DNA of 5,559 nucleotides from an uncultured archaeon (GCA_964426185.1 CAYRPF010000123.1:1-5559); one strand, 5' to 3'. Positions 9-5,559 are shown, numbered from the stretch's first letter. A program made the numbers and translations. Notes: generated by a model not told the origin, from the letters alone.

Positions 9-281
9 CTATTCATTGAAAATTTTCCGAAATCTATCAAATGTGGATTTAATTAGCGAATAATGAATGAAATTTCCCTTTTTCCAGCCTTGAATAAGTT
101 GTGCCTTCTCAAGTTTTTTCAAATCACGAGATACAGCGGGCTGACTTTTTTGTAGTAGGGCTTCAAACTCACACAAGCACATATCTTTTTGAGAAATCGC
201 TTCAATAATCATCAAACGATCAGAATTGGATAAAACCGAAAAAATTTGATTTAGAAATTGAAATTTGCTGTTGTTTCGTAT
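9..281 (-). pseudogene. ArsR/SmtB-family winged-helix transcriptional regulator, probably a 5'-truncated remnant
   Basis: The frame is open from 281 to TAG at 11-9: ...QIFSVLSNSDRLMIIEAISQKDMCLCEFEALLQKSQPAVSRDLKKLEKAQLIQGWKKGNFIHYSL. This fits the ArsR pattern F-x-x-L-x-x-x-x-R-L-x-I, CxC-E, SQPAVS-x-(H/D)-L-x-x-L and the wing G..x.Y-x-L. Similarity extends upstream of the track's TTG (215), but there is no ATG/GTG/TTG upstream before the in-frame TAA at 284-282. Confidence 0.75.
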
Positions 282-935
282 TTAGCTGATAAGATTCTGC
301 CGGGTTATCCTTATGCAACCGATCCAAAAACGGGTATGCAATTGTTTTATGGATATATTGGAAAATCTTCATTTGGAGACATAATACTGAGAATCTTTCT
401 TGGTCCATTGGCTGCAAGCTGGGAACCGGTTTTTCGATATTTGGCAGATAGTTTCATCGGTAGTATTATCGGAATTTACATCGGTCAAGATTCCAAAGAT
501 ATAAAGACTAATTGGTTGAAAAAATTCGTATGGGTGGGATTTATTATGTTTATCGTGGGTGTTATGGGAGTAAATCTCAATAATGCGTTAGTTTTGATTA
601 ATAATGGTATAGATGGTGCCTTAGATCTTTATCTGAAAATTTCAGAGCACAGGTTTTGGACTGCAGCAAACGGGGTCCCGGTATTGGGTTGGTTGTTCCA
701 ATTTCTATTTCTAAACGGCTTTACCATCTGTGGGATCATGCTTTTGATTCGATTGGTGGAATTTAGAGGAAAGGGCCAAAAATTTGCTGAAAAAACCAAA
801 TATTTCAGAAGAATTGGTTTTATTGCATTTACCATCTATACCATCCAATGGGTATATAATTTAATGTTCTTTATTGTCTCGTCCATCAACGGGGAGCCGT
901 ATAAGCGAGTCTTTTGGGGTGGAGGTTTGTTTTGA
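258..935 (+). pseudogene. Polytopic membrane protein fragment (DUF418/DUF1624 acyltransferase-like by resemblance), likely truncated at both ends
   Basis: 225-aa ORF with several hydrophobic segments (FVWVGFIMFIVGVMGV, VLGWLFQFLFLNGFTICGIMLLIRLVEF, IGFIAFTIYTIQW). EPVFRYLA and FFR-like R-x-G-x-x-A-F-T-x-Y segments are typical of the C-terminal half of such proteins. The start is a TTG just after an in-frame TAG (252-254), with no room for a promoter, and the ORF stops abruptly after WGGGLF. Confidence 0.55.
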
Positions 936-1250
936 TAAAGAGTGTTTTTTTCAATCATCGTAGAATAAAAGTCAGTCTCATTTAACCATGAACCTAAATA
1001 AAGCATGTGAGAAAGGAATTGATCGAAAATTCTTCTATAAAAAAATACATAAGTGGTCTGAATAAAAATTTTATGTATTTGGAATAAACATTCGAAAACC
1101 GAAACTTCCATACCTCAAGGTTAAAAAGATGAAACTAATTCTAAAAATACAGGTATAATATAGTAAATATGGACGCTTCGTTAATGGAAGATAAAATAAT
1201 CTACTAAGCTAATGCAGTGTTATAAAATAAATAATTTACCAATAATAATT

Positions 1251-1258
1251 TTTATAAA
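1251..1258 (+). promoter_or_regulatory. Candidate archaeal TATA box (TTTATAAA) for the Ubl operon
   Basis: TTTATAAA ends 45 nt upstream of the ATG at 1304, and an SD-like AAGGT lies at 1292-1296. The region is very AT-rich and alternatives exist (TTATAAAA at 1220-1227). Confidence 0.3.
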
Positions 1259-1303
1259 TGAAACCACACAAACATATTAAAATAAACAAAAAAGGTTATA
1301 AAA

Positions 1304-1558
1304 ATGAATGAAAATAAAATTAGCATTATCTTTATCATAAATGGCAAAGAATACCAAGTGGAAGCTAATATTAACTCTAAAGTAAAACAAGGGGTTAGTA
1401 AAGCTTTGAGAGACGCTGGAATATCAGGTTCCCCAATGGAATGGAAAGCGAAAAAAGAAGATGGGACTAATGTGAATTTAGATCAGAATTGGGAAGAACA
1501 AGGGATTAAAGAAAATACAAAGATTTTTTTGACTAAGGGAGCAGGTCGTGGAGGTTAA
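1304..1558 (+). CDS. bilA: Ubiquitin-like beta-grasp modifier protein (DUF2604-like, BilA-type), single domain with C-terminal GG
   Basis: 84 aa. N-terminal beta-hairpin ISIIFIINGKEYQVEAN, helix VKQGVSKALRDAG, W-x4-E-D-G-x-x-V, last strand TKIFLT, and tail GAGRGG-stop. First gene of a cluster with E2, JAB and E1. Confidence 0.93.
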   Translation: MNENKISIIFIINGKEYQVEANINSKVKQGVSKALRDAGISGSPMEWKAKKEDGTNVNLDQNWEEQGIKENTKIFLTKGAGRGG

Positions 1559-1568
1559 CCTTTTTTTT
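1552..1568 (+). terminator. Possible leaky intra-operon terminator after the Ubl gene
   Basis: Perfect palindrome AGGTTAACCT (1552-1561) spanning the stop codon, running into a T8 tract (1561-1568). Oligo-T tracts are archaeal termination signals. Confidence 0.35.
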
Positions 1569-1592
1569 GTTTAATAATTCAATAAATTCTGG

Positions 1593-2150
1593 TTGATTTC
1601 TTTGGATGACAATTATTTTTCTTCTACTACATCTTCGACAAAAGAGAATTGTTTTATTATATTTCCATCAGACTCCCATGTCCCATATATAAGAAATGTA
1701 CTTTATATCATAAAGCAGAGTTTAAATGAATTTAAAATTAAACCAATTACACTTAGTGGAAAAATCCGTTCAAGTGAAGACTATTTAGATAAAGTTATCG
1801 AGTTAATTGATAAATGCAAATTTGGGATAATTATGTTAGATGGGCTTCGGTTTAATGTTATATTAGAAATGGGAATTATGATTGGGAGAGAAAAAGAGAT
1901 CATTTGTCTTCAAGAAAAGCAAGCAGAAATCAATTTGAAGTCTATTTATCCAGATGAACCTACAAAAGAAATAACAGGTTTAACACCTGGTTCCTTTGAT
2001 AAAATAATAAATCCAAAAGTTGAGATTAGTATACACCTCTCTGATTTTGGAAAAAGACATATATGTATTTATGATAAAAATAATCTGGAAGAAACAAAAC
2101 ATAAAATAATTGACGAAATATCAAAAGTATTAGAACTCTTAGTACAATAA
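1593..2150 (+). CDS. TIR-like / nucleoside 2-deoxyribosyltransferase-like (flavodoxin-fold) protein
   Basis: 185 aa. Beta1 CFIIFP, helix DYLDKVIELIDKC, strand FGIIMLD, signature N88-V-I-L-E92-M-G94-x-x-x-G-x-x-K-x-I-I, and late LSDF..HI..YD. TTG start at 1593, or at 1602 (GGTTGA at 1591-1596 could act as SD). Co-oriented, 34 nt after the Ubl and 18 nt before the E2. Confidence 0.75.
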   Translation: MISLDDNYFSSTTSSTKENCFIIFPSDSHVPYIRNVLYIIKQSLNEFKIKPITLSGKIRSSEDYLDKVIELIDKCKFGIIMLDGLRFNVILEMGIMIGREKEIICLQEKQAEINLKSIYPDEPTKEITGLTPGSFDKIINPKVEISIHLSDFGKRHICIYDKNNLEETKHKIIDEISKVLELLVQ

Positions 2151-2168
2151 AACGTTATTTATTGAAAA

Positions 2169-2795
2169 ATGATGAAAACTATGGAAGAAAAACCAAAAAT
2201 TGAAGGAAATAAACTGACAATTACCATAGGTAACTTCCCTTTTAAACTAAATCCTGAAGGAGTTAAATTTCAACCGATTCAAATACAAATTAACTCATCT
2301 ATTATAAGAAGAAGACATATCAAAGTTAACTCTGAAGTTGATCTACTTGATAGTAGAGTCGCAAAATTGTATTTCAAAAAGGAAGTAAATATGCTTAAAA
2401 AGAAGGCTGAGGTGTATAAATCGATATGGTCAATCAAGGAGATTTATTTTCCAAATATATTTCTAAATATTTTCTCTTTAAAAGGAAAAATTTTGTTTAT
2501 TTTATCAATTAATTTGAAAAACTACAATTATTATCCTCCAGAATTTGGATTACTTACTAAAGATATGAAAATATTGAAAAAAATAGATTCAAAATACGTT
2601 ATACCAGATAAGAACGGGTATATTCATATTAAAAATCATAATCAAGGACTTTGGTTTTGTACCCCGGGAACTTACAAATATCATGATTTTTACTTTGACA
2701 TTGATCGCTGGGAACTTGAAAGATATAATACAACATGTGATTTAGTTGAAACAATCAATCGAATCATCGGAATGATAGATAGAAGTCAAGATTAA
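2169..2795 (+). CDS. bilB: E2-like Ubl-conjugating enzyme of the CEHH (Metal_CEHH / type II BilB) family
   Basis: Motifs D-x-x-V-A-x-x-x-F-x-x-E-V, W-x5-FP, N-Y-N-x-x-P-P (E2 YPxxPP equivalent), F-C164-T-P-G-T-Y-K-Y-H172 and D-R-W-E-L-x-R. Located between the Ubl and JAB/E1 genes. The start could be 2169, 2172 or 2181. Confidence 0.82.
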   Translation: MMKTMEEKPKIEGNKLTITIGNFPFKLNPEGVKFQPIQIQINSSIIRRRHIKVNSEVDLLDSRVAKLYFKKEVNMLKKKAEVYKSIWSIKEIYFPNIFLNIFSLKGKILFILSINLKNYNYYPPEFGLLTKDMKILKKIDSKYVIPDKNGYIHIKNHNQGLWFCTPGTYKYHDFYFDIDRWELERYNTTCDLVETINRIIGMIDRSQD

Positions 2796-2814
2796 GGGAA
2801 GTGTTTCTACATCA

Positions 2815-3291
2815 ATGAATAAAACCCATCAAATCTATATTCCTTATACAATTATTGAGAAAACTCTTCAGTTAATCAAAAAATATGGGAAAAAATTTAC
2901 TGAAGGTTTTGTTTTATGGGTTGCATCTGAAAACTCCGATTTTTATAAAGTAAAGGATGTATGGGAACCCAAACAACAGAATTCTTTCATTTCGTATTAC
3001 ATTCCTGAAGAAGAAGTCCATAAATTAAATGTAAAAATATATAAAAAAAAGTTGATACTTATTGCCCAAATCCATTCTCATCCGAGTTATGCATATCATT
3101 CTCAAACAGATGATGATTATGCAATAATACATTTACCTAATTTATTTAGTATTGTCATCCCATATTTTGGAAATATTGATAACTCAGAATTTTTTGAAAA
3201 ATGTGCAATATTTCAATTAAAGAAGAATCATTGGAAAAAAATATCAAAAAAGAAGGTGAAAAAGACATTCAAGATATTAAAAGAAGAATAA
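2815..3291 (+). CDS. bilC: JAB/JAMM (MPN+) zinc metallo-isopeptidase (deubiquitinase-like, BilC-type)
   Basis: Catalytic E30 (TEGFVLW) and complete metal motif H87-S-H89-P-S-Y-A-Y-H-S96-Q-T-D99, followed by FSIVIPYFG. Confidence 0.93.
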   Translation: MNKTHQIYIPYTIIEKTLQLIKKYGKKFTEGFVLWVASENSDFYKVKDVWEPKQQNSFISYYIPEEEVHKLNVKIYKKKLILIAQIHSHPSYAYHSQTDDDYAIIHLPNLFSIVIPYFGNIDNSEFFEKCAIFQLKKNHWKKISKKKVKKTFKILKEE

Positions 3292-4811
3292 AAGAAGATT
3301 CGCTAAACAGAAATCTAGATAATTTTAAAAAGCTTACAAATATAGAGGATAAGCAAGCCTACTCACAAATATTTGATAATTTCAAACTTAATGTCATTTT
3401 ACAATGTAATGAGGATGGTAATTCAATCAATAAGAATGATGCTTTATCTGCGAGCATTTTTCTTAATATAGTAAGTAGATTTCTTTCATATATTTCATTT
3501 AAGGGAAATTATAAGTTGATTCAAAAAACTTTTCCTATGAAAAGCTTTGCTAATAGCTTAGAATCCAAAAATTTCGATGAATCTCCAGATTTAACTATTG
3601 TTTTTGGAAATAGAAGAATTGAATCTAAAAAGGTATATTATGTTACATCCAGTGGATGGAGTATATATATATCAAAATTAAAACCATGTAATTGGGATAA
3701 TTTTTTAGAAAATCCCCTTTCTGCATTATATGTTGGAAGCTTTATGGCAGGAGAAATCTACAAAATCTTGTTAAAAGATTATGTTTCCACAGAAATTCTC
3801 GATGAATTTATCTATGATTTTATTACTTTCGGACAAGACCAACAACCAGTTCTAGAACCCGAAATACCTGAATTTTTTAATATAGATTTAACTCTAATAG
3901 GTTGCGGTGCTGTAGGTCAAGCGATAGGATTAGCTTTAAAAGAACTAGAATTGCGAGGTAATTTAAACCTAATAGATAATGAAGCAATAGAACCGTCCAA
4001 TTTACAGCGTTATCCACTAGCTTTTGAAGAAAATGTGGGTCACCTAAAAACTGAACTACTTGCTCAATATATCATAGGCCGAAATAATCTTCTCTTAGTT
4101 ACGCATGAAATCAATACTTTATACCGAGTTGCCAAAAGTGATTATGAAATCTTGAATAGAATGAATGATGTTATTATTTCAGTAGATAATAAAAAAACCA
4201 GAATTGATCTCCAAGCTTCCCTGCCTAAAATGATATGGAACGTTTGGACAGATACGAGTAGAAATAATTTAAGATATGGATTTGGAAAACACGATTTTCA
4301 AGATGAATTTGAATGTTTAGCTTGTGCTTATTACCCTGACGAAAAAATTCCTGATCAAATTGAATTAAATGCAAAAATTTTAGGATTAACACCGGTAGAA
4401 ATTAATCAAAGAATCAAGAACAATGAATTATTCAAGCAAGAAGATTTGAATTATGTTTTTGAAAACTTTACTGTTCCTCCGAACCATATCAATAATTTAA
4501 AAAGTTTAGTGGGTAAACCGTTTGAAGAAGCTCTTCATGGGAAATGTGGAATATTTAATGTAAAATTATCAGAAAAACATGAACCAACTCCTGCCCCGCA
4601 TATTCCTACTTTAGCCGGAGTGCTGGTTGTGATATATTATATTCTCTCTAAAATTAATCCCACATTTTGTGATCAAAATATTTTCATCGGAGAGTATGAC
4701 GCTTTTTCGTATCCAAATAAAAATTGTATGCTAAAGAAGAAAAAAAATGATTCTTGTGTATGTAATGATGAAATATATCAACAAGCATATAACGAAAAGT
4801 GGTTATTATAA
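3201..4811 (+). CDS. bilD: E1 Ubl-activating enzyme (ThiF/UBA family; BilD-type with N-terminal inactive adenylation-like domain)
   Basis: G234-C-G-A-V-G nucleotide loop, D-x-E-x-I-E-x-S-N-L-Q-R-Y, K(TEL), V-D-N-x-x-T-R, Zn ligands C372-L-A-C375 and C519-V-C521, and candidate catalytic C449 (HGKCG) in an insert after CxxC. The ~230-aa N-terminal region (SSGW, NPLSALYVGSFMAGEIYK) looks like a degenerate ThiF repeat. The start codon is uncertain (see findings). Confidence 0.93.
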   Translation: MCNISIKEESLEKNIKKEGEKDIQDIKRRIKEDSLNRNLDNFKKLTNIEDKQAYSQIFDNFKLNVILQCNEDGNSINKNDALSASIFLNIVSRFLSYISFKGNYKLIQKTFPMKSFANSLESKNFDESPDLTIVFGNRRIESKKVYYVTSSGWSIYISKLKPCNWDNFLENPLSALYVGSFMAGEIYKILLKDYVSTEILDEFIYDFITFGQDQQPVLEPEIPEFFNIDLTLIGCGAVGQAIGLALKELELRGNLNLIDNEAIEPSNLQRYPLAFEENVGHLKTELLAQYIIGRNNLLLVTHEINTLYRVAKSDYEILNRMNDVIISVDNKKTRIDLQASLPKMIWNVWTDTSRNNLRYGFGKHDFQDEFECLACAYYPDEKIPDQIELNAKILGLTPVEINQRIKNNELFKQEDLNYVFENFTVPPNHINNLKSLVGKPFEEALHGKCGIFNVKLSEKHEPTPAPHIPTLAGVLVVIYYILSKINPTFCDQNIFIGEYDAFSYPNKNCMLKKKKNDSCVCNDEIYQQAYNEKWLL

Positions 4812-4858
4812 AAAATTCTTATTTTTTTGATTTCTCTTTATAATGAGTGGGAGTTTTC

Positions 4859-5559
4859 ATGAAAATATTAAAAGAGATACAAGATCTTGTTTCAAAACAA
4901 TCAGTCACATTTTTGGTAGGAGCAGGAATATCCTTTGATTTTCCATCCAATATAGAACCTTCTAATTTAATTATTAATAATATATTCACACATTTCTTCC
5001 CAAAATCAATAAAATATGACAAAAGAGATCTTAGTAAATTGAAAAATGTACGATTCGAAACAGTAATGTCAAAATTTATTAAATTATTTAATGAAAATTC
5101 ATCATTTATTAATTATTTCGCTGAAAAATCACAATTTAATCCGATACACTCTTTTCTAGCAAATCAATTATCTAAAAAAAATATAATCTTAACAACGAAC
5201 ATTGATTTATTAATAGAATCTGCATTTTGTAAACATTTTCCACATTTAAAAAATCAAGGAAAAACAATCATAACTAACGATGATTTTATTAAATTTTCTA
5301 ACCCAAAATCTCTTTTTAATAAAGGATTTTATCCAATTTATAAACTTCATGGATCTGCTTTTGATTTTTTTAACAGAGATTTTCCAGAACGTAATAAAGA
5401 AATAAAGGAGTATATTCAATTTAAAATTGAGAATATCTTAAAGTATAAGGATATTGATAAAAATTTTTTTCAATTGAATAAACCGCAACAAGATGTTTTT
5501 CAAAATTTAAATTATATTTTATTTGTTATGGGATATAGTGGAAATGATGATTTAGATAT
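4859..5559 (+). CDS. SIR2-like domain protein (SIR2_2-type, putative NADase), partial, runs off the 3' end
   Basis: Not in the ORF track. Manual translation from ATG 4859 (GGGAG at 4849-4853) is open for 233 codons to the window end: MKILKEIQDLVSKQSVTFLVGAGISFDFPS...NPIHSFLA...IILTTNIDLLIESA...PIYKLHGS...LFVMGYSGNDDLD. All sirtuin hallmarks are present (GAGxS, TTNxD, KLHGS, GYSxxD), with no Zn-finger cysteine pairs. Confidence 0.92.
   Translation, partial: MKILKEIQDLVSKQSVTFLVGAGISFDFPSNIEPSNLIINNIFTHFFPKSIKYDKRDLSKLKNVRFETVMSKFIKLFNENSSFINYFAEKSQFNPIHSFLANQLSKKNIILTTNIDLLIESAFCKHFPHLKNQGKTIITNDDFIKFSNPKSLFNKGFYPIYKLHGSAFDFFNRDFPERNKEIKEYIQFKIENILKYKDIDKNFFQLNKPQQDVFQNLNYILFVMGYSGNDDLD

What the first reader, a model, noticed from the sequence alone, without database searches (positions are those of the whole stretch)
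1304..5559. Ubiquitin-like conjugation operon (Ubl-E2-JAB-E1) interleaved with TIR/NDT-like and SIR2 enzymes: candidate new hybrid defence system
Seen in sequence: six co-oriented genes with gaps of 34, 18, 19, -91 and 47 nt, in the order Ubl, TIR/NDT-like, E2, JAB, E1, SIR2, with catalytic motifs apparently intact. Established: four-gene BilABCD systems conjugate a Ubl to viral proteins. TIR and SIR2 domains are NAD-consuming signalling or effector modules in Thoeris, CBASS/Pycsar, DSR and short Argonaute systems. In CBASS, E1-E2/JAB proteins (Cap2/Cap3) regulate a signalling enzyme by conjugation. Inference: Ubl conjugation may control or be sensed by a nucleotide-signal/NAD-depletion arm, or a Thoeris-like TIR+SIR2 pair may be merged with a Bil module. 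I do not know of a described Bil system with this six-gene architecture.
Basis: partly seen in the sequence, partly recalled or inferred. Interest (0 to 1): 0.9.

Follow-up and report, generated by a model that had tools for sequence, protein, structure and literature searches.

The report
Asgard Bil operon with inserted TIR-like gene
An Asgard (Loki-type) archaeon carries a bacterial-style ubiquitin-like tagging operon (Type II Bil) with one extra TIR/NDT-like gene inserted into it and a separate SIR2 gene next door, but about twenty related operons lack both extras, so this looks like a one-off mosaic in a defence island rather than a new six-gene immune system.

Summary
Six co-oriented genes lie at 1304-5559, and all six domain calls were confirmed.

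Four of them (Ubl, CEHH-type E2, JAB, E1) form a divergent archaeal Type II BilABCD operon. Their best solved relatives are the Ensifer aridi BilA, BilB, BilC and BilD structures.

The proposed six-gene hybrid system is not supported:
- In 19 related loci where spacing can be read, Ubl is followed directly by E2.
- Custom HMMs found no TIR-like or SIR2 gene of these types in 325 kb spanning 40 Bil-type loci.
- The SIR2 is cut by the contig end. It belongs to a multi-copy Lokiarchaeal SIR2-TPR family (137 of 400 genomes, up to 8 copies each) that occurs without Bil, and its base composition differs from the Bil block. It is most likely an independent neighbour.

The TIR/NDT-like gene is a real, clean insertion of about 680 nt at the bilA/bilB junction. 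Its composition matches the Bil genes and it sits 18 nt upstream of bilB. Its relatives are N-terminal domains of TIR-like-TPR proteins. Whether it works with Bil remains open; I put that at about 25%.

The scan had already noted the plain four-gene Type II Bil in another Asgard genome (e1-5588840).

Interest is moderate: a new variant of a known kind, seen in one lineage only.

The parts
258..935 (+). Truncated fragment of a multi-copy 560-600 aa membrane-protein gene, with host-like GC (37%). It marks the upstream edge of the AT-rich block.
   Evidence: matches only part of 560-600 aa frames in relatives, with a 77%-identical paralog at G000:C96; similarity stops at about 930, while the paralog continues for about 150 more codons; composition.
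936..1303 (+). AT-rich intergenic region upstream of bilA. It is the presumed promoter region, with a TATA-like TTTTTATAAAT and an AAGGT site before the ATG.
   Evidence: Sequence read. The promoter assignment is inference only.
1304..1558 (+). bilA: single-domain ubiquitin-like protein (DUF2604) that ends exactly at ...KGAGRGG, so it is already in mature form.
   Evidence: Pfam DUF2604 2.9e-14. Best solved relative is Ubl(BilA) 8tyx_A, 6.3e-7. The GRGG end is conserved in 9 relatives, which carry 0-15 extra residues.
1559..1592 (+). Intergenic spacer with a T8 run straight after the bilA stop. It may act as a partial archaeal terminator.
   Evidence: Sequence. Relatives have no such spacer, because their bilB starts at or overlaps the bilA end. 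The terminator role is inferred.
1593..2150 (+). Inserted stand-alone TIR/NDT-like gene (CAP12/PCTIR-like, 185 aa, TTG start), with D83 and E92 conserved. Relatives carry this domain fused to TPR repeats.
2169..2795 (+). bilB: CEHH-type E2 with catalytic C164, in the motif C164-K170-H172. The second His of CEHH is replaced in the whole clade.
   Evidence: The clade profile hits E2(BilB) 8tyz_C at 8.6e-6. The AF2 model's top three Foldseek hits are the BilB chains of 8tz0/8tyz (6.8e-6, TMt 0.65-0.69), followed by UBC E2s. C164, H172 and W181 are invariant.
2815..3291 (+). bilC: JAB/JAMM deubiquitinase-like peptidase (E30, H87, H89, S96, D99).
   Evidence: PADLOC BilC 8.9e-10. Best solved relative is DUB(BilC) 8tyx_B, 4.8e-19, with E30 aligned to its E33.
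3201..4811 (+). bilD: multidomain E1 with adenylation motif GCGAVGQ, catalytic C449 and zinc cysteines C372/C375/C519/C521. It overlaps bilC by 91 nt.
   Evidence: Best solved relative is E1(BilD) 8tyz_A, 8e-23 over residues 128-533. Invariant residues. 41 representatives have E<1e-30. The overlap is conserved in relatives.
4812..4858 (+). Spacer with a T7 run, a TTTATAA box and a GTGGGAG Shine-Dalgarno-like site before ATG 4859.
   Evidence: Sequence. Functional roles are inferred.
4859..5557 (+). N-terminal part of a SIR2_2 (SIRim-type) gene, cut by the contig end. It is most likely a SIR2-TPR protein and a separate gene.
   Evidence: Pfam SIR2_2 1.6e-7. Relatives occur in 137 of 400 phylum genomes, multi-copy, as the N-terminal domain of mostly 600-1900 aa frames. 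SIR2_2 plus TPR repeats were found in all 7 relatives scanned. GC is 22.6% and GC3 13.7%, lower than every 700-nt window of the genome. No continuation was found on other contigs.

Best explanation
The locus is a mosaic in an AT-rich, horizontally acquired defence-island-like block of a Lokiarchaeial (Promethearchaeota) genome. It has three parts. (1) A complete, divergent Type II BilABCD operon. By analogy with the E. aridi and Collimonas systems, the E1 (C449) adenylates the Gly-Gly end of the Ubl and forms a thioester with it. The Ubl then passes to the CEHH-type E2 (C164) and is attached to lysines of a viral or cellular target. The JAB peptidase trims or removes the Ubl. (2) A 185-aa TIR/NDT-like gene inserted exactly at the bilA/bilB junction. 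It derives from the N-terminal effector domain of Lokiarchaeial TIR-like-TPR proteins and lacks their TPR sensor part. It is probably co-transcribed with bilBCD and encodes a nucleotide or NAD+ N-glycosidase-type enzyme. No conserved link to Bil is seen. (3) A separate downstream SIR2-TPR-type gene that probably acts alone, with the TPR repeats as sensor and the SIR2 domain as NAD+-consuming effector. Shown here: the homologies, the folds, the insertion point, the lack of conservation and the composition. Inferred: all enzymatic activities, the defence role and the transcription units.
For: Core is Type II Bil. E1, JAB and Ubl each have the E. aridi BilD, BilC and BilA chains as their best solved relatives (8e-23, 4.8e-19, 6.3e-7). 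The E2 matches BilB by profile (8.6e-6) and by fold. The gene order Ubl-CEHH/E2-DUB-E1 is the one Chambers et al. define for Type II Bil (bioRxiv 10.1101/2023.09.26.559546). Not a conserved six-gene system. The closest locus (G015, same order; E2 58% and E1 49% identical) has four genes only. In 10 close and 9 distant loci the Ubl-to-JAB distance is 460-915 nt, room for one E2, against 1257 nt in the window. The distance from the Ubl stop to the conserved E2 core is -66 to 74 nt in relatives against 716 nt here. HMMs of the TIR-like and SIR2 subfamilies find nothing in 325 kb of 40 Bil-type loci. Genes downstream of E1 differ between loci: HNH/GmrSD-like, Schlafen AlbA_2, dTMP kinase and unknowns. 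SIR2 is independent. It belongs to a multi-copy SIR2-TPR family present in 137 of 400 genomes, and in G015 the copies lie on other contigs than Bil. Its GC3 is 13.7% against 19-23% for the TIR-like gene, bilB, bilC and bilD (bilA 27%), and a T7 run and its own Shine-Dalgarno-like site precede it. TIR-like gene. None of the 11 phylum genomes with relatives has the Bil E2. Its composition matches the Bil genes (GC3 19%). An 18-nt gap without a T-run separates it from bilB. Island context. The Bil genes lie in the lowest 1-8% of genome GC windows, and a truncated host gene sits at the upstream edge.
Against: The TIR-like gene sits inside the operon with both neighbouring reading frames preserved, keeps its conserved D83 and E92, and has the same composition as the Bil genes. 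All of this also fits a selected, functional fifth component. A rare conserved TIR-bearing subclade could therefore have been missed. The C-terminal half of the window's own SIR2 is unknown, so a signal-sensing domain there cannot be excluded. No transcription data exist.
Confidence: 0.6

Rival explanations
1. Five-gene variant: the TIR/NDT-like protein has been captured as a working accessory of this Bil operon. It could be an effector whose nucleotide or NAD+-degrading activity is switched on or localised by Ubl conjugation, or a substrate or regulator of the E2. The SIR2 gene remains a separate neighbour.
For: The insertion is clean, lies at the bilA/bilB junction and leaves every frame intact. 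The gap to bilB is 18 nt with no T-run. Composition is identical to the Bil genes. D83 and E92 are conserved. In relatives the domain is regulated by a fused TPR part that is missing here, so something else would have to control it. There is a precedent for conjugation machinery linked to TIR proteins: Thoeris operons with Cap2/Cap3 (bioRxiv 10.64898/2025.12.03.692087).
Against: Seen in one strain-level sequence only; all database copies are identical. Absent from 19 related loci. The protein ends in ...ELLVQ, without the Gly/Ala tail that marks Cap2/3-conjugated TIRs (one search compared). A T8 run separates it from bilA.
Confidence: 0.25
2. One reading: all six genes form one hybrid system, with Ubl conjugation coupled to a Thoeris-like arm in which the TIR makes a signal and the SIR2 depletes NAD+.
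For: The six genes are co-oriented with short gaps. The TIR-like and SIR2_2 domains are each single-copy in this genome, and both lie on this contig.
Against: Neither extra gene recurs at related Bil loci. All 7 scanned SIR2 relatives carry TPR repeats, with no SLOG, Macro or other signal-binding domain. The SIR2 differs in composition from the Bil block. The TIR-like fold is at least as close to NDT/DNPH1 N-glycosidases as to signalling TIRs. The two genes are not adjacent.
Confidence: 0.08
3. The TIR-like ORF is a non-functional remnant: a domain-sized piece of a TIR-like-TPR gene left behind by recombination and not yet decayed.
For: It has no ATG start, only TTG at 1593 or 1602. It lacks the TPR part that relatives have. 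A truncated gene at the upstream island edge shows rearrangement in this region.
Against: The ORF is intact and ends cleanly at the domain boundary, after a helix that aligns with relatives. The AF2 model is confident (pLDDT 78). Conserved residues are kept. Stand-alone 140-190 aa proteins of this fold are widespread.
Confidence: 0.07

Closest known systems
Type II BilABCD (CEHH/6C) operon, Ensifer aridi TW10 (Chambers et al., bioRxiv 10.1101/2023.09.26.559546; PDB 8tyx, 8tyz, 8tz0)
   Same: Same gene order, Ubl-CEHH/E2-JAB-E1. All four proteins have the E. aridi proteins as best solved relatives. The Ubl is a single-domain DUF2604 protein with a conserved C-terminal Gly. The E1 and E2 catalytic Cys and the JAMM motif are present. 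The setting looks like a defence island.
   Different: The host is an archaeon (Asgard), and the clade is distant: the E1 aligns with BilD only over residues 128-533 (E 8e-23). The second His of CEHH (E. aridi H151) is Phe in the whole clade, and Glu is Lys in the window. bilC and bilD overlap by about 90 nt. An extra TIR/NDT-like gene lies between bilA and bilB. The Ubl ends exactly at GG and has no tail to process.
Type I BilABCD (Collimonas sp. OK412; Hör et al., bioRxiv 10.1101/2023.09.04.556158)
   Same: A four-gene Ubl, E2, JAB, E1 system that conjugates a Ubl to a phage tail protein. The PADLOC BilC and BilD models hit the window's JAB and E1.
   Different: The PADLOC BilA and BilB models do not hit. 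The Type I Ubl has two ubiquitin-like domains, whereas this one has a single domain.
Thoeris or CBASS operons with Cap2/Cap3 (E1-E2 fusion plus JAB) (bioRxiv 10.64898/2025.12.03.692087)
   Same: A TIR-family gene in one operon with E1/E2/JAB-type conjugation enzymes.
   Different: In those systems the TIR or CD-NTase is itself conjugated through a special C-terminal tail, and there is no free Ubl. Here E1 and E2 are separate genes, a dedicated Ubl exists, and the TIR-like protein ends in ...ELLVQ.
Lokiarchaeial TIR-like-TPR and SIR2-TPR proteins (effector domain plus TPR sensor architecture; Pfam TPR-S)
   Same: The window's TIR-like and SIR2 domains are 33-40% identical to the N-terminal domains of these proteins.
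   Different: The window's TIR-like protein has no TPR part. The window's SIR2 is cut by the contig end, so its TPR part is inferred.
NDT-superfamily nucleotide N-glycosidases (DNPH1/Rcl, MilB, BcmB)
   Different: Sequence identity is only 12-14%. TIR domains score within 1-2 Z units, so the substrate (NAD+ or nucleotide) is undetermined.

Membership tests
Type II BilABCD (CEHH/6C) | Gene order Ubl - CEHH/E2 - JAB DUB - E1 in one operon | tested here: met
   with the order as defined. One extra gene is inserted between Ubl and E2.
Type II BilABCD (CEHH/6C) | Multidomain E1 homologous to BilD, with a catalytic Cys | tested here: met
   8tyz_A E1(BilD) at 8e-23 over residues 128-533. C449 is invariant in the clade.
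Type II BilABCD (CEHH/6C) | E2-fold CEHH protein with a catalytic Cys | tested here: met
   Profile hit to 8tyz_C E2(BilB) at 8.6e-6. Top fold hits are the BilB chains of 8tz0/8tyz. C164 is invariant.
Type II BilABCD (CEHH/6C) | Full C-E-H-H motif, including the His next to the catalytic Cys (E. aridi H151) | tested here: not met
   The window has C164, K170 and H172. The position aligned to H151 is Phe in the whole archaeal clade. This is a clade-level difference, not decay of this copy.
Type II BilABCD (CEHH/6C) | JAB/JAMM peptidase homologous to BilC | tested here: met
   8tyx_B at 4.8e-19. E30, H87, H89, S96 and D99 are present.
Type II BilABCD (CEHH/6C) | Beta-grasp Ubl with a conserved C-terminal Gly | tested here: met
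   DUF2604 at 2.9e-14. 8tyx_A at 6.3e-7. The GRGG end is conserved in 10 sequences.
Type II BilABCD (CEHH/6C) | Ubl-target conjugation and antiviral protection | not testable with these tools
   This needs biochemistry and an infection assay.
Thoeris | A TIR gene paired with an effector that carries a signal-binding domain (SLOG, Macro, etc.) | tested here: inconclusive
   The two genes are not adjacent. All 7 scanned SIR2 relatives carry TPR repeats only. The C-terminus of the window's own SIR2 is missing.
Cap2/Cap3-associated signalling systems (Type II CBASS or Thoeris) | An E1-E2 fusion (Cap2), and a conjugated enzyme with the special C-terminal tail | tested here: not met
   E1 and E2 are separate genes. 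PADLOC 'E1-E2' models match only the adenylation region, residues 221-384. The TIR-like protein ends in ...ELLVQ, unlike the tail described.
TIR domain, CAP12/PCTIR type (PF10137) | Score over the Pfam cut-off, a flavodoxin-like TIR fold and a conserved Glu | tested here: inconclusive
   25.2 bits against a cut-off of 24.7. The fold matches TIR and NDT/DNPH1 about equally well. E92 is invariant. TIR and NDT cannot be separated.
SIR2_2 / SIRim (PF13289) | Score over the Pfam cut-off, and NAD-binding and catalytic N/H residues | tested here: met
   32 bits against a cut-off of 24.5. GAGIS, N118/D120 and H168 are read in the sequence. Only profile positions 2-96 of 141 are present before the contig ends.

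The most novel reading that the evidence does not exclude
The TIR/NDT-like enzyme is a captured fifth component of an archaeal Bil system, and its nucleotide- or NAD+-degrading activity is gated by conjugation of the free Ubl. That would be a ubiquitin-like-controlled effector arm in an Asgard archaeon, parallel to but mechanistically distinct from Cap2/Cap3-primed TIR and CD-NTase enzymes.
Probability: 0.2. Interest if true: 0.75.

Novelty: new variant of a known kind. Interest (0 to 1): 0.4.

Why it matters
Bil systems are the bacterial counterparts of eukaryotic ubiquitin/ISG15 antiviral tagging. [quoted passage not shown] The two Asgard defensome papers I searched do not mention Bil. The distribution is patchy: 2 of 400 phylum genomes, on atypically AT-rich DNA. 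That argues for horizontal acquisition rather than an ancestral link to eukaryotic ubiquitin. If the embedded TIR/NDT-like gene proved to be functionally coupled, it would be a first example of a free-Ubl conjugation system joined to a nucleotide/NAD-degrading enzyme. As it stands, this is a single-lineage arrangement. Its main lesson is cautionary: tight, co-oriented spacing in a defence island does not make a system.

Tried and rejected
I used contig scans instead.
- The word-based homologue search with the TIR-like protein found only the protein itself.
- The first genome-contig scan, with the single E1 sequence, found nothing.
- Complex prediction with E1(54-536) + E2 + Ubl and the TIR-like protein as partner gave no verdict (score 0.00). 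This counts neither for nor against binding.
- The look-up of sequencing runs listed no RNA holder. Only hydrothermal-vent and marine-sediment DNA runs hold parts of the stretch.
- Read laying showed only 150-400 nt Logan contigs. None bridges the contig end, so the rest of SIR2 was not recovered.
- Searching G000 for the rest of the SIR2 gene (PF13289, and tblastn with 12 full-length relatives) found no contig-edge continuation.
- Pfam PF14455 is too weak to detect even the known E2s of L013 and L014.
- An E1-profile survey of 401 alphaproteobacterial genomes gave only 2 hits, one of them the seed genome.
- The viral-contig scan with the E1 alignment found nothing. The TIR-like alignment was not conserved enough to scan with.
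- The inverted repeats flanking the TIR-like gene (1578-1598 / 2146-2166, 76% complementary) are one of 71 such pairs in AT-rich DNA. I rejected them as an insertion scar.
- I first took the 91-nt JAB/E1 overlap for a longest-ORF artefact. I withdrew that after seeing the overlap conserved in relatives.
- Cluster members on other contigs (20.7 kb, 3.5 kb, 1.35 kb) are identical strain-level copies, not independent occurrences.
- The literature searches for DUF2604 and for BilA/BilD/archaea/TIR found nothing relevant.

Full report
**What is there.** The window is the whole of contig C123 (5559 nt) of a 3.26-Mb, 92%-complete MAG. A same-order genome, G015, is titled 'Promethearchaeota archaeon' in its public record, so the host is a Loki-type Asgard archaeon.

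Pfam and PADLOC confirm the domain calls:
- DUF2604 Ubl.
- CAP12/PCTIR TIR-like, just over the cut-off, with a weak NDT match.
- Metal_CEHH.
- JAB, matching the PADLOC BilC model.
- ThiF E1, matching the PADLOC BilD model.
- SIR2_2.

The SIR2 ORF runs off the contig end.

**The four-gene core is a Type II Bil operon.**
- Against all PDB sequences, the E1, JAB and Ubl each have the Ensifer aridi BilD, BilC and BilA chains as best hit (8e-23, 4.8e-19, 6.3e-7).
- The E2 has no single-sequence hit. A 12-sequence clade profile hits E2(BilB) 8tyz_C at 8.6e-6.
- The E2's AlphaFold model is only moderately confident (pLDDT 61). Even so, its top three Foldseek hits are the BilB chains of 8tz0/8tyz, followed by eukaryotic UBC E2s.
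- Chambers et al. define Type II BilABCD as the CEHH/6C operon with the order Ubl-CEHH/E2-DUB-E1, which is the order here.
- Catalytic residues are in place: E1 C449, E2 C164, JAB E30/H87/H89/D99 and the Ubl GRGG end.

This clade differs from the bacterial type in three ways. The second His of the CEHH motif is Phe throughout. bilC and bilD overlap by about 90 nt. In relatives, bilB starts at or overlaps the end of bilA.

**Is the six-gene layout conserved? No.** The exhaustive HMMER search with the E1 found 41 representatives below 1e-30.

- tblastn with all six window proteins shows 10 close loci (E1 32-49% identical) and 9 distant ones in which both Ubl and JAB are visible. The Ubl-to-JAB distance there is 460-915 nt, room for one E2, against 1257 nt in the window.
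- The distance from the Ubl stop to the conserved E2 core is -66 to 74 nt in relatives against 716 nt in the window.
- No locus gave a TIR-like or SIR2 hit.
- HMMs built from the TIR-like alignment and from 20 SIR2 domains also found nothing in 325 kb of these loci.
- The closest genome locus (G015; E2 58% and E1 49% identical) is a plain four-gene operon.
- Genes downstream of E1 differ from locus to locus: an HNH/GmrSD-like protein, a Schlafen AlbA_2 protein, thymidylate kinase and unknowns.
- Within 400 genomes of the phylum, only G000 and G015 have this E2.

**The SIR2 gene.**
- Its 237 visible residues match 137 of 400 phylum genomes, with up to 8 copies per genome. The match is almost always at the N-terminus of frames that are mostly 600-1900 aa.
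- All seven relatives scanned are SIR2_2 followed by TPR repeats.
- In G015 the copies lie on contigs other than the one carrying Bil.
- The window's SIR2 is compositionally distinct. Its GC is 22.6% and GC3 13.7%, lower than every 700-nt window of the genome. The TIR-like gene, bilB, bilC and bilD have GC3 of 19-23%, and bilA 27%.
- A T7 run and a Shine-Dalgarno-like GTGGGAG precede its ATG at 4859.

I conclude that it is most likely a stand-alone SIR2-TPR gene cut by the assembly. Its own C-terminus could not be recovered.

**The TIR/NDT-like gene.**
- It is single-copy in the genome.
- Relatives occur in 11 other genomes of the phylum. In each case they form the N-terminal domain of a larger protein: TIR-like-TPR, one TIR-like-LRR, and one 260-aa protein next to cas6e. 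None of those genomes has the Bil E2.
- The alignment shows invariant D83 and E92, and the window's protein ends cleanly at the domain boundary.
- The AlphaFold model (pLDDT 78) matches TIR domains, nucleoside 2-deoxyribosyltransferases, MilB and ThsB by Foldseek.

The gene has the same composition as the Bil genes. It is separated from bilA by a T8 run and from bilB by 18 nt. It is a real, clean insertion of about 680 nt at the bilA/bilB junction.

**Is the TIR-like protein coupled to Bil? Unknown.** A complex prediction with E1 + E2 + Ubl gave no verdict. Thoeris operons with Cap2/Cap3 show that TIR proteins can be linked to conjugation machinery. In those operons, however, the TIR is itself the conjugated species, through a special C-terminal tail. 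The window's protein lacks such a tail. All database copies of this arrangement are identical strain-level sequences, so there is no evolutionary replication.

**Context.**
- The Bil block is atypically AT-rich for the genome (34.3% GC overall; Bil genes lie in the lowest 1-8% of windows).
- At its upstream edge lies a truncated fragment of a multi-copy membrane-protein gene.
- Both points fit an acquired island.
- Earlier scan notes had already recorded the plain four-gene Type II Bil in another Asgard genome (e1-5588840; its Ubl tail FTNSKD is that of L012).
- Those notes also include cases where a Bil-like operon next to another module proved to be two systems (e1-1178130). These agree with my reading but are not independent evidence.

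**Verdict.**
- The locus is a divergent archaeal Type II Bil operon with a lineage-specific embedded TIR/NDT-like gene and an independent SIR2-TPR neighbour.
- My odds are 0.6 for the mosaic reading, 0.25 for a working five-gene variant, 0.08 for the six-gene hybrid and 0.07 for a dead remnant.
- It is a new variant of a known kind, of moderate interest.

Noticed in passing
window 258-935: This ORF is a truncated piece of a multi-copy 560-600 aa membrane-protein family. A 77%-identical paralog lies at G000:C96. Similarity stops at about 930, right where the AT-rich Bil block begins, which suggests an insertion or rearrangement boundary.
   Followed up: partly
L012:4702-5559(-), L018:3038-3847(-), L019:2-616(-), L021:478-1341(-): A divergently oriented gene with an HFX_2341_N domain (nucleotidyltransferase-like), plus a SarA/Rot-like winged helix in L018, recurs just upstream of four related Bil loci. 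It is absent from the window. It may be a regulator or partner of this archaeal Bil clade.
   Followed up: partly
L055-L073 (e.g. L057:1444-3645, L061:1492-3660): Lokiarchaeales carry a large expansion of SIR2_2(SIRim)-TPR proteins: 137 of 400 phylum genomes, up to 8 copies per genome, mostly 600-1900 aa. A SIRim plus TPR-like architecture is also reported for eukaryotic sirims (bioRxiv 10.1101/2024.09.18.613514).
   Followed up: partly
L074:1477-2961, L076:1-2025(-), L011:10716-12182, L003:974-1756: The same TIR/NDT-like domain heads TIR-like-TPR proteins, a TIR-like-LRR protein in a 6.0-Mb closed genome (G010), and a 260-aa protein next to a cas6e-type gene. It is a shuffled effector module in Asgard genomes.
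   Followed up: partly
window 2157-2171 and 3189-3203: A shared 15-nt motif, ATTT[A/T]TTGAAAAATG, ends at the start codons of bilB and bilD. It may be a common translation-initiation context for internal operon genes.
   Followed up: no
window 1288-1298 and 1556-1566: An 11-nt perfect complement (AAAAAAGGTTA / TAACCTTTTTT) brackets the bilA gene. The 5' leader and 3' end of a bilA transcript could pair. This may be chance in AT-rich DNA.
   Followed up: no
L014 and L015 (Nitrosopumilaceae MAGs), L013 (Alphaproteobacteria MAG): Relatives of this Bil clade (E1 32-37% identical) also occur in Nitrosopumilaceae archaea and in an alphaproteobacterium. In L015, L044 and L048 the E1 match is split into two pieces, as if frameshifted, and no Ubl hit was found in L015. 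These copies may be decaying.
   Followed up: no
relatives L012, L017, L019, L021-L023 (Ubl/E2 junction): In relatives the 1-15 residue tail after the Ubl GG lies where bilB's coding region begins. The 'precursor tail' may therefore partly be a by-product of gene overlap. The window's Ubl has lost both the tail and the overlap.
   Followed up: partly
window 4816-4848: One short Logan contig of run X1 matches only these 33 nt of the bilD-SIR2 spacer and has unrelated sequence on both sides (loose ends). This could be a repeated intergenic element or chance.
   Followed up: no
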